A program made the position numbers and the translations under genes. A stretch of 64,000 bases of DNA, taken from sequence record OQ990039. One strand, given 5' to 3'. This DNA is from Escherichia phage SUT_E420. Shown here one piece after another: positions 6,087-7,087 of the stretch. The notes beneath the pieces are model-generated. The model worked only from the letters and a program-made list of their open reading frames with translations, was not told the DNA's origin and did not search any database. Within the stretch, counting starts at the first letter, position 1; each line of letters starts with the position of its first letter.

Positions 6087-6119
6087 AGCCCGCGCTCTCG
6101 TAGGAAACGCGGGCTTGGT
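6087..6119 (-). terminator. rho-independent terminator (minus strand)
   Basis: Stem GCCCGCG/CGCGGGC; on the minus strand followed by TTTTCTGTATTT; immediately 3' of the SPFH gene. Confidence 0.6.
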
Positions 6120-6139
6120 TCGAAGATTACGTGTAACTA

Positions 6140-7087
6140 TTACTTGTTACGCATATCCATGATCATTTGACCATCGTAGCCAGTACCTACCACAGTCTGA
6201 GGTACACCACCTTGATACTTCTGAGCACGGATCATTTCAACTTCCAGTTGTTTCCAACGAATCATTTCAGGAGTAATGGTACGTTGCAATGCGGCGTTAG
6301 CTTCAGCTTCTTTCTTAGCTGCGTACAGTTTAGCATCTGCGTCACGTTCATTAGCAATAGCTTGGTTGTTACGAGCTTCACGATCTGCTTCTGCTTGTTT
6401 AACTTTTTGCTGTGCTTCCTGTTCAACGCGAGCAAGTTCAGCTTTCGCAGCATTAACTTGCTCTTCACGAACTTTGGTATTCTGTACCTGTTCCATGATT
6501 ACTGGCGGCAAGGTAATATCCTGAAGGAATACCTGCTTAACTGTGTAACCATATGGGCGCGCATACTCTTCAACTTCCTGTTGAATTGCAGTTTGCAATT
6601 GAGCCTGAATTTTAGCATCAAATAAATCTTGTGCTTTAGGTACAGACTTACCAAACTCACGAATAGTAGACAGTAATTTTTCAGTTACATACTTGTCTAG
6701 TGCCTGATCCTGAGTACCTGCGTTAATACGGTTAATCGGTGCTTTAGAACCATCAAACTGCAACATAACAGTCAGGTCAACAGTGGATTTAAACTTATCC
6801 TGGCTAGGAACCTGAAGTTTATCTAATTTTACAGCAATATCTTTTGTACTAAAAGTATCGAAAGATGCAAACGGGTTTACAAGATGGAAGCCCGGCAATA
6901 CTGGATTAGGGTCTACTTTACCCAGGAATGTTTGGGTTTTAACCGTACCATCAGAAACAATAGTATATGAATTAAAAGCTAGGATTAAACCTGCTAAACC
7001 AACTACAGCACCAATACCCCAACGTTTAATAGTACGAATTACTTTCTGCTCAGAAGTCAGTTCTTTCATATTTTTAGTAGCAAACAT
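6140..7087 (-). CDS. SPFH/band-7 (stomatin/prohibitin/HflC-like) membrane protein (315 aa)
   Basis: N-terminal hydrophobic helix (WGIGAVVGLAGLILAF), central SPFH-like core, C-terminal Ala/Glu/Gln-rich coiled coil (AKAELARVEQEAQQKVKQAEADREA). Confidence 0.6.
   Translation of the reverse strand: MFATKNMKELTSEQKVIRTIKRWGIGAVVGLAGLILAFNSYTIVSDGTVKTQTFLGKVDPNPVLPGFHLVNPFASFDTFSTKDIAVKLDKLQVPSQDKFKSTVDLTVMLQFDGSKAPINRINAGTQDQALDKYVTEKLLSTIREFGKSVPKAQDLFDAKIQAQLQTAIQQEVEEYARPYGYTVKQVFLQDITLPPVIMEQVQNTKVREEQVNAAKAELARVEQEAQQKVKQAEADREARNNQAIANERDADAKLYAAKKEAEANAALQRTITPEMIRWKQLEVEMIRAQKYQGGVPQTVVGTGYDGQMIMDMRNK

What the first reader, a model, noticed from the sequence alone, without database searches (positions are those of the whole stretch)
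6087..7087. Phage-encoded SPFH/band-7 (HflC/stomatin-like) membrane protein convergent with the low-complexity cassette
The 315-aa protein has an N-terminal membrane anchor, an SPFH-like core and a long Ala/Glu/Gln coiled coil. Host SPFH proteins (HflK/HflC) scaffold membrane microdomains and modulate FtsH, so a phage homolog could alter host membrane proteolysis or organisation. It is separated from the cassette at 4125-5893 only by back-to-back terminators.
Basis: partly seen in the sequence, partly recalled or inferred. Interest (0 to 1): 0.5.

Follow-up and report, generated by a model that had tools for sequence, protein, structure and literature searches.

The report
Phage T5 accessory SPFH membrane-scaffold gene
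This is the long-annotated but never characterised band-7/SPFH membrane protein gene of phage T5 (T5.080, BF23 "ORF trn 1.1"): real, strongly conserved and lost without harm in a viable laboratory deletion mutant, so an ordinary known feature whose function is still open.

Summary
Window 6140-7087 (-) encodes a 315-aa protein. It has one N-terminal membrane helix, a significant Band_7/SPFH domain (Pfam E 2e-17), a 76-residue Ala/Glu/Gln helix and its own terminator.

The window is a T5-like phage, and the gene is T5.080 (BF23 "ORF trn 1.1"). GenBank has labelled it "band 7 protein" since the T5 genome was deposited. Homologues in T4-like phages were listed as SPFH in 2006.

- **Not HflK/HflC.** There is no NCBIfam hit, and the profile match to HflC or HflK is short and weak. 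E. coli QmcA is the closest host protein, and there is no paired gene.
- **Not a lipoprotein.** The protein has no cysteine.
- **Not a detected or required virion part.** The viable T5 st0 deletion mutant lacks it, and BF23 virion mass spectrometry does not list it.
- **Selected in nature.** About 440 T5-like records carry it, against about 442 that carry a close NrdA. dN/dS is 0.02-0.08, and T4-like myoviruses carry copies 76-78% identical in protein.

Most likely it forms a periplasm-facing SPFH ring or cage on the host inner membrane. Its client is unknown, and FtsH is only a candidate. The neighbouring cassette is not linked to it. The window also holds a 100-N scaffold gap that duplicates one terminator.

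The parts
6140..7087 (-). CDS of 315 aa: SPFH/band-7 inner-membrane protein. It is the homologue of T5.080 (AAX12012, annotated 'putative transmembrane protein, IPR001107 band 7') and of BF23 ORF trn 1.1.
6959..7021 (-). Codons 23-43: the single N-terminal transmembrane anchor. It is preceded by a Lys/Arg-rich N-terminus (6 K+R against 2 D+E), which predicts N-terminus in the cytoplasm and the rest in the periplasm.
   Evidence: Hydropathy and positive-inside count. AlphaFold2 helix at 12-38.
6413..6934 (-). Codons 52-225: the SPFH (Band_7) domain.
   Evidence: Pfam PF01145, E 2e-17. Foldseek matches to erlin, prohibitin, HflK/C, stomatin and QmcA.
6218..6505 (-). Codons 195-290: a long Ala/Glu/Gln-rich helix (195-270) and a second helix (273-290). 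These correspond to the CC1 and CC2 wall helices of SPFH cages.
6143..6217 (-). Codons 291-315: a conserved C-terminal tail (GGVPQTVVG..Y.G..IMD.R.K), modelled with low confidence. By analogy it is the cap of the oligomer.
   Evidence: Alignment A1. pLDDT below 50. The cap role is an inference.
7093..7097 (-). Shine-Dalgarno sequence AAGGA.
   Evidence: BF23 annotates a ribosome-binding site at the same place.
6086..6116 (-). Rho-independent terminator of the SPFH transcription unit. It contains the GCGC motif of the T5 major nick 3 (32.6%), which BF23 annotates as a 'DNA single-chain interruption'.
6034..6070 (+). Terminator of the convergent plus-strand cassette (BF23 'bidirectional terminator ter1'). 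An artefactual second copy lies at 5857-5893.
   Evidence: -20 kcal/mol, z = -3.2.
5911..6010 (.). A run of 100 N (scaffold gap) with an exact 77-bp overlap on either side. This is an assembly artefact, not biology.
7122..7196 (-). tRNA-Arg(UCU), immediately upstream in the same transcription unit.
7197..7980 (-). Non-coding leader equivalent to BF23 'RNAX, stable RNA with unknown functions'. It contains a tRNA-like element at 7699-7770.
   Evidence: mapped onto the window by blastn at 94.9% identity.
7994..8022 (-). Sigma-70 promoter-like site (TTGCTA-17-TATAAT). It coincides with BF23 promoter P16-17 and is the likely start of the unit RNAX - tRNA-Arg - SPFH.

Best explanation
The gene is an accessory early gene of a T5-like phage. 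It is transcribed from a sigma-70 promoter together with a stable RNA and tRNA-Arg, and it ends at its own terminator.

Its product is a type II inner-membrane protein: the N-terminus is in the cytoplasm, and the SPFH domain, coiled coil and C-terminal tail are in the periplasm. It belongs to a stand-alone prohibitin/stomatin-class SPFH subfamily that also exists as a chromosomal gene in some Gammaproteobacteria.

Like every SPFH protein of this architecture whose structure has been solved, it most likely self-assembles into a multimeric ring or cage. That cage would sit on the periplasmic face of the infected cell's inner membrane and fence off a membrane patch with whatever proteins lie inside it.

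- **Shown here:** identity, domain architecture, transcription-unit anatomy, loss in a viable laboratory deletion mutant, absence from a published virion protein list, near-universal conservation and purifying selection.
- **Inferred:** topology, oligomeric cage formation and early expression.
- **Unknown:** the client. Host FtsH is the best single candidate, by analogy with HflK/C and the prohibitins.
For: - **Identity and architecture.** Pfam Band_7 at E 2e-17. AlphaFold2 model at pLDDT 79 with a TM helix, an SPFH core, a 76-residue helix and a second helix. Foldseek gives near-full-length matches at E 2e-14 to 1e-8 to erlin1/2, PHB1/2, HflK/C, stomatin, QmcA and flotillin. These are described in the literature as ring or cage assemblies (PMC12624060 abstract; PMC13086221 discussion).
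- **Topology.** The N-terminal flank has more Lys+Arg than the C-terminal flank in 19 of 21 homologues, and there is a single hydrophobic segment.
- **Transcription unit.** Promoter-like site at 8022..7994 and terminator at 6116..6086. BF23 annotates P16-17, then RNAX, tRNA-Arg, ORF trn 1.1, a nick and ter1, and this maps onto the window at 95% identity.
- **Dispensable in the laboratory.** The T5 st0 deletion removes window ~497-8302. The natural variant NG_S8 keeps only the last ~41 codons.
- **Not found in virions.** The BF23 virion mass-spectrometry table lists 18 proteins and no SPFH protein, although BF23 carries the gene.
- **Selected in nature.** 440 phage records carry the SPFH gene at >=80% identity, against 442 that carry NrdA at >=80%. 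dN/dS is 0.02-0.08. RB16-like and Slopekvirus-like myoviruses carry copies 76-78% identical, and Aeromonas T4-like phages carry copies about 61% identical.
- **Cellular origin.** Chromosomal homologues are 57-59% identical in Morganella and Providencia, and 33-41% identical in Methylococcaceae and Methylophagaceae. In the three loci whose neighbours were scanned, they lie among housekeeping genes, with no phage genes, NfeD or second SPFH gene nearby.
Against: - No experiment or multimer model supports oligomerisation of this particular protein.
- The topology rests only on the positive-inside rule. The closest E. coli relative by sequence, QmcA, has its SPFH domain on the cytoplasmic side (my own knowledge, not tested here).
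- Nothing identifies a client.
- Loss of the gene in T5 st0 shows that any effect is not needed on laboratory E. coli.
Confidence: 0.62

Rival explanations
1. HflK/C mimic. The phage cage binds or encloses host FtsH and changes the turnover of membrane or regulatory substrates. For example, it might protect phage membrane proteins or alter LpxC or SecY turnover.
For: It has the same predicted type II, periplasm-facing topology as HflK/C and the same overall fold. Prohibitins and HflK/C, both among the top fold matches, partner with FtsH-type AAA proteases (PMC12048511 abstract). A Vibrio phage homologue is labelled 'putative modulator of FtsH protease', but that is only an annotation.
Against: No NCBIfam family is matched. 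hhalign to HflC covers 41 columns, and to HflK the probability is 13%. It is a single gene rather than a heterodimeric pair. There are no interaction data. Many SPFH proteins have other clients.
Confidence: 0.2
2. Membrane-integrity or energy-maintenance factor. The scaffold stabilises the inner membrane of the infected cell until programmed lysis. This could counter envelope stress, premature lysis, or membrane-targeting abortive-infection effectors. It would matter in wild hosts but not in E. coli K-12.
For: The gene is lost in a viable laboratory mutant yet near-universal and under strong purifying selection. It has been acquired by unrelated virulent phage lineages and by giant viruses. 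Bacterial SPFH proteins are linked to stress tolerance and to the Psp response (PMC10434171 and PMC8581546 abstracts).
Against: The argument is purely circumstantial. There is no PADLOC hit and no anti-defence context.
Confidence: 0.25
3. Lysis-timing accessory. The protein acts with holin or antiholin proteins in the periplasm or inner membrane.
For: In RB16 the gene lies directly after rI and rI.-1. In Aeromonas phage 31 it lies in the same tk-rI region. In T5-like phages a secreted SleB-like wall hydrolase is encoded about 1.6 kb upstream.
Against: I recall the tk-rI region as one of the variable regions of T4-like genomes, so the adjacency may be positional only; this was not checked here. 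In T5-like phages the gene is nowhere near the holin/endolysin genes. No co-variation was tested.
Confidence: 0.08
4. Virion or assembly component.
For: SPFH-domain proteins were detected by mass spectrometry in virion preparations of Erwinia jumbo phages, though these belong to a different phage group (PMC7760394).
Against: T5 st0 lacks the gene and is deposited as a complete genome of a deletion mutant strain. The protein is absent from the BF23 virion proteome. The gene lies in the early tRNA region, far from the morphogenesis genes.
Confidence: 0.02

Closest known systems
Phage SPFH family PHROG_200: T5.080, BF23 ORF trn 1.1, RB43ORF139c, 44RRORF098c
   Same: This is the same family. The PHROG match is at E 1.9e-86. 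The protein is 99.4% identical to T5 AAX12012 and 76-78% identical to the RB16 and Slopekvirus proteins. These proteins were listed as SPFH/Band 7 in 2006 (PMC1524935).
   Different: Nothing material differs. The PHROG and RefSeq label 'lipoprotein' does not fit: there is no cysteine and no lipobox.
E. coli HflK/HflC (FtsH-modulating SPFH cage)
   Same: The fold, the N-terminal anchor, the predicted periplasmic orientation and the coiled-coil wall are shared.
   Different: There is no sequence-level membership. It is one gene instead of an obligate pair. A link to FtsH is untested.
E. coli QmcA (YbbK) with its NfeD partner YbbJ, and stomatins
   Same: QmcA is the closest host relative by sequence: phmmer E 1.8e-6 and hhalign probability 96% over 210 columns.
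   Different: No NfeD partner is encoded next to the gene. The predicted orientation is opposite to that of QmcA (plus my own knowledge of QmcA topology).
Eukaryotic prohibitins and erlins
   Same: These are the best structural matches over the full length. They share the type II N-terminal anchor with the bulk on the non-cytoplasmic side, and the C-terminal tail resembles the prohibitin tail. Some phage homologues are named 'PHB domain' or 'prohibitin family protein'.
   Different: Identity is only 16-19%. Those proteins form hetero-oligomers of two paralogues, whereas only one gene is present here.
Stand-alone chromosomal SPFH gene of Morganella and Providencia, and of methylotrophic Gammaproteobacteria
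   Same: These are the closest cellular relatives. They are 57-59% and 33-41% identical, have the same length and architecture, and are single genes without a partner.
   Different: They are chromosomal and lie in housekeeping surroundings. Their function is also unknown.

Membership tests
SPFH / Band 7 superfamily (PF01145) | SPFH domain detected above the curated threshold | tested here: met
   64.2 bits against a cutoff of 23.6, E 2e-17. Foldseek probability 1.00 to many solved SPFH proteins.
SPFH / Band 7 superfamily (PF01145) | N-terminal membrane anchor followed by the SPFH domain and C-terminal coiled-coil helices | tested here: met
   Hydropathy and the AlphaFold2 secondary structure.
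SPFH / Band 7 superfamily (PF01145) | Assembly into a large ring or cage oligomer | not testable with these tools
   Only a monomer model could be made.
HflK/HflC regulators of FtsH | Sequence membership in the HflK or HflC families | tested here: not met
   No NCBIfam hit at E <= 1. hhalign to HflC gives 63% probability over 41 columns, and to HflK 13%. No HflK/C chain appears among PDB sequence hits at E <= 1.
HflK/HflC regulators of FtsH | Two paralogous genes encoding a heterodimer | tested here: not met
   No second SPFH ORF in the 64-kb window, and none adjacent in T5, BF23, RB16 or phage 31.
HflK/HflC regulators of FtsH | Type II topology with a periplasmic domain | tested here: inconclusive
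   The positive-inside rule predicts it in 19 of 21 homologues. There is no experimental mapping.
HflK/HflC regulators of FtsH | Physical association with FtsH | not testable with these tools
   This needs a pull-down or cryo-EM experiment.
Stomatin/QmcA-NfeD operon | Adjacent NfeD-family partner gene | tested here: not met
   Pfam scans of the larger neighbouring ORFs on both sides found no NfeD, and no annotated homologous locus lists one.
Bacterial lipoprotein (the label carried by PHROG_200 and RefSeq) | Lipobox with an invariant Cys at the end of the signal peptide | tested here: not met
   The protein has no cysteine at all, as do 18 of the 21 family members aligned.
Known anti-phage defence or anti-defence proteins (PADLOC) | Match to a PADLOC model | tested here: not met
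   No hit at E <= 1.

The most novel reading that the evidence does not exclude
Unrelated virulent phage lineages (T5-like siphoviruses, RB16-like, Slopekvirus-like and Aeromonas T4-like myoviruses, Vibrio phages) may have captured and tightly conserved one stand-alone bacterial SPFH gene for a specific purpose. Its periplasm-facing cage would reprogramme the infected cell's inner membrane in a way that matters only in natural hosts. It might sequester FtsH, or shield the membrane from defence effectors that collapse it. That would make it a widespread and so far unrecognised class of phage host-takeover or counter-defence factor.
Probability: 0.15. Interest if true: 0.65.

Novelty: already known. 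Interest (0 to 1): 0.3.

Why it matters
Virus-encoded SPFH proteins recur from T5 to giant viruses. The one paper I read that discusses the point calls their function in phages "poorly understood" (PMC7760394).

T5 is a tractable model, and the gene combines three useful properties: a viable laboratory mutant lacks it, it is near-universal among T5-like phages, and it is under strong purifying selection. That makes it a clean starting point for asking what a viral SPFH cage does. As a sequence feature, however, it is neither new nor surprising.

Tried and rejected
- **Lipoprotein (PHROG_200 and RefSeq label).** Rejected: the protein has no cysteine.
- **HflK/HflC orthology.** Rejected.
- **NfeD or a second SPFH partner.** Not found in the neighbouring ORFs scanned, and no SPFH paralogue in the window.
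- **Functional linkage to the convergent cassette at 4156-5847.** Rejected. The cassette's ORF326 is present in 222 records and in no T4-like phage, against 725 records with the SPFH gene. YZU-L1 has the SPFH gene without the cassette.
- **Block transfer of SPFH plus NMN adenylyltransferase between RB16 and T5-like phages.** Rejected: the two adenylyltransferases are only 27% identical over 156 residues.
- **Recent horizontal transfer as the reason for 76% identity to RB16.** Not supported. Synonymous sites are saturated (dS about 1.9 or undefined), so the similarity reflects constraint.
- **Known RNA family in the intergenic or terminator region.** Only sub-threshold Rfam matches were found.
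- **Defence-system models.** No hit.
- **Literature.** Searches for T5.080, for SPFH with T5, and for phage SPFH function found annotations but no functional study. The T5 virion proteomics paper (J Virol 2014) is not held in the library.
- **The st0 and T5 literature search.** It returned nothing relevant.

Full report
**What the window is.** A 4.5-kb stretch around the finding is 100% identical to Escherichia phage T5_ev212 and several other Tequintavirus genomes. It matches 447 phage records in all. The window carries the T5-type tRNA gene cluster. It also contains twelve runs of exactly 100 N, ten of them flanked by exact 77-bp overlaps. It is therefore a scaffold of k-mer-77 contigs of a T5-like phage.

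**The observation.** The ORF lies at 6140-7087 on the minus strand and encodes 315 aa. An AAGGA Shine-Dalgarno sequence precedes the ATG.
- Pfam Band_7/SPFH matches at E 2e-17 over residues 52-225.
- There is one hydrophobic segment, at residues 25-43.
- An AlphaFold2 model built on 21 homologues (pLDDT 79) shows a TM helix, an alpha/beta SPFH core, a 76-residue helix (195-270) and a second helix (273-290).
- The helical region is 46% Ala, Glu and Gln combined.
- The gene ends in a strong terminator hairpin at 6116..6086, and the convergent cassette has its own hairpin; each folds at about -20 kcal/mol.

One correction is needed. The run of 100 N at 5911-6010 and its 77-bp duplication are an assembly artefact that duplicates the plus-strand terminator. 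In other T5-like genomes the two stop codons are 115 bp apart.

**What the gene is called elsewhere.** In T5 (AY587007) it is AAX12012, 'putative transmembrane protein, IPR001107: band 7 protein'. Phage BB1 cross-references it as T5.080 / YP_006908. In the BF23 tRNA-region record it is 'ORF trn 1.1'. That record describes the unit as promoter P16-17, a 784-nt stable 'RNAX', tRNA-Arg, ORF trn 1.1, a DNA single-chain interruption and the bidirectional terminator ter1. The BF23 stretch aligns to window 6014-8049 at 95% identity. This puts the promoter on the sigma-70-like site I found at 8022..7994. Homologues in T4-like phages (RB43ORF139c, 44RRORF098c, Aeh1ORF064c) were tabulated as SPFH/Band 7 in 2006 (PMC1524935). 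The feature is therefore already known as an annotation. My searches of the held library found no functional study.

**Which kind of SPFH protein it is.**
- Foldseek against the PDB gives near-full-length matches to erlin1/2, prohibitin 1/2, HflK/C, stomatin, QmcA and flotillin, at E from 2e-14 to 1e-8.
- By sequence, the nearest solved proteins are QmcA (E 1.8e-6) and prohibitin-2 (E 8.6e-5). No HflK or HflC chain appears at E <= 1.
- A profile of the phage family aligns with E. coli QmcA over 210 columns (probability 96%). With HflC it aligns over only 41 columns (63%), and with HflK at 13%.
- No NCBIfam model is matched.
- There is no second SPFH ORF in the window and no NfeD gene among the neighbours scanned.

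It is therefore a member of the SPFH superfamily but not of the HflK/C family or the QmcA-NfeD family.

The 'lipoprotein' label that PHROG_200 and RefSeq propagate does not fit: the protein contains no cysteine.

The N-terminal flank carries more Lys+Arg than the flank after the membrane segment in 19 of 21 homologues. This predicts a type II orientation with the SPFH domain in the periplasm. I recall HflK/C having this orientation and QmcA the opposite; that comparison was not tested here.

**Is it needed, and is it in the virion?** The T5 st0 deletion mutant (AY692264) joins window position ~496 to ~8303. The SPFH gene, the cassette, several tRNAs and the primase-like ORF are all absent. The Epseptimavirus NG_S8 naturally retains only the last ~41 codons. 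The BF23 virion mass-spectrometry table lists 18 proteins, none of them this one (PMC10644984), although BF23 encodes it.

**Is it selected?**
- 440 phage records carry it at >=80% protein identity. 442 records carry the phage NrdA at >=80%. Almost every T5-like genome therefore has it.
- Pairwise dN/dS among T5-like orthologues is 0.02-0.08.
- Copies 76-78% identical in protein occur in RB16-like and Slopekvirus-like myoviruses of about 175-180 kb. Copies about 61% identical occur in Aeromonas T4-like phages, and copies 31-41% identical in Vibrio phages. In all, 725 records carry it.
- Synonymous sites between T5-like phages and RB16 are saturated, so the high protein identity reflects constraint rather than recent transfer.

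**Origin.** A scan of one genome per bacterial species found chromosomal homologues. They are 57-59% identical in Morganella and Providencia, and 33-41% identical in Methylococcaceae, Methylophagaceae and others. In the three loci whose neighbours I scanned, the gene lies among housekeeping genes, for example trpFBA-accD-folC-SPFH-mqo. No phage genes, NfeD or second SPFH gene were nearby. The exhaustive representative search found only 36 clusters at E <= 1e-30 and 957 at E <= 1e-3. This is a small, distinct, stand-alone SPFH subfamily that phages have borrowed. SPFH folds also occur in many other phages and in giant viruses.

**Relation to the cassette.** The cassette's large ORF occurs in only 222 records, nearly all of them T5-like. 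Citrobacter phage YZU-L1 has the SPFH gene followed by unrelated co-directional genes. The convergent arrangement is positional, not functional.

**Mechanism.** The solved proteins that match this architecture are described as ring or dome assemblies on a membrane (PMC12624060 abstract; PMC13086221 discussion). The most likely mechanism is therefore a homo-oligomeric cage on the periplasmic face of the infected cell's inner membrane, fencing in a membrane patch and its proteins. This is an inference.

The client is unknown. FtsH is the best single candidate, by analogy with HflK/C and the prohibitins; I rate that at about 0.2. A general membrane-integrity or counter-defence role that matters only in wild hosts fits the pattern of being lost in a laboratory mutant yet conserved in nature; I rate it at about 0.25. 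Proximity to rI in RB16 and in phage 31 is a weak lead towards lysis timing.

**Verdict.** This is a real, correctly recognised but already annotated gene of a classical model phage. It is an SPFH protein but not an HflK/C homologue, not a lipoprotein, not a virion protein, and not tied to the neighbouring cassette. Interest is modest. It rests on the open question of what viral SPFH cages do, not on anything unusual in this sequence.

Noticed in passing
window 5911-6010 and eleven other 100-N runs (27525, 29064, 38551, 42797, 43455, 44192, 44824, 45694, 46690, 47262, 54082): The window is a scaffold. It has twelve gaps of exactly 100 N, ten of them with an exact 77-bp duplication on either side (k=77 contig ends that were not merged). 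Any feature that spans these points is partly artefactual.
   Followed up: yes
window ~6088-6100 (inside the terminator at 6086-6116): The T5 'major single-stranded nick 3, 32.6%' and the BF23 'DNA single-chain interruption' map into the 3' arm of the SPFH gene's terminator, at a GCGC motif. The left contig of the scaffold ends at the base just before this hairpin, so the assembly break may be caused by the nick.
   Followed up: partly
window ~7197-7980 (-), with a tRNA-like element at 7699-7770: This roughly 780-nt non-coding stretch between the promoter and tRNA-Arg corresponds to BF23 'RNAX, stable RNA with unknown functions'. Rfam sees only a weak tRNA match inside it (35.5 bits).
   Followed up: partly
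window 8704-9171 (-) and 9159-9476 (-): There is a secreted SleB-like cell-wall hydrolase (Hydrolase_2, E 4e-25, with a signal-peptide-like N-terminus). It overlaps the end of a cREC_REC 'cyclic-phosphate processing receiver' domain protein (E 4e-15). Both are early genes upstream of the SPFH unit, and both are separate from the known T5 lysis cassette.
   Followed up: no
window 3431-4000 (-): A 189-aa Toprim-only 'DNA primase'-like ORF (PHROG_849, E 1e-62) lies within the region deleted in T5 st0, so it too is lost in a viable laboratory mutant.
   Followed up: no
L004 (Escherichia phage NG_S8, LC788711) 4756-5281: This natural Epseptimavirus variant has lost codons 1 to about 274 of the SPFH gene and the whole plus-strand cassette. 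Short unrelated sequence has replaced them.
   Followed up: partly
window 4216-5205 (+); hit H107: The C-terminal half of the cassette's 329-aa protein is 60% identical to a protein of Pseudomonas phage KPP23, a 63-kb genome that is not T5-like. T5 itself is only 81% identical in this protein, whereas the SPFH gene next to it is 99% identical. The two neighbours therefore have different histories.
   Followed up: no
L003 4772-5188 (T5 AY587007 'kapc'): The Gln-rich 138-aa ORF of the cassette is annotated in T5 as 'cAMP-dependent protein kinase catalytic subunit'. Pfam finds nothing in it. The name looks like a low-complexity artefact that has spread to other records (for example JLBYU40).
   Followed up: partly
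L014 (Flagellimonas marina contig, 178 kb); P0028 and P0053 (Klebsiella 'plasmid', Enterobacter asburiae contig, both ~175-177 kb); H28 ('Listeria phage LM 4-11-1', 1.9 kb): Several 'bacterial' or oddly named records carrying near-identical SPFH genes have the size of whole T4-like phage genomes, or are fragments of a T5-like phage. They are probably phage contamination or mislabelling in public assemblies.
   Followed up: no
L015-L027 (Morganella and Providencia chromosomes): These genomes carry a stand-alone chromosomal SPFH gene 57-59% identical to the phage protein. In the two loci scanned it lies among metabolic and transporter genes, in different surroundings in the two genera. The direction of transfer (host to phage or phage to host) was not resolved.
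   Followed up: partly
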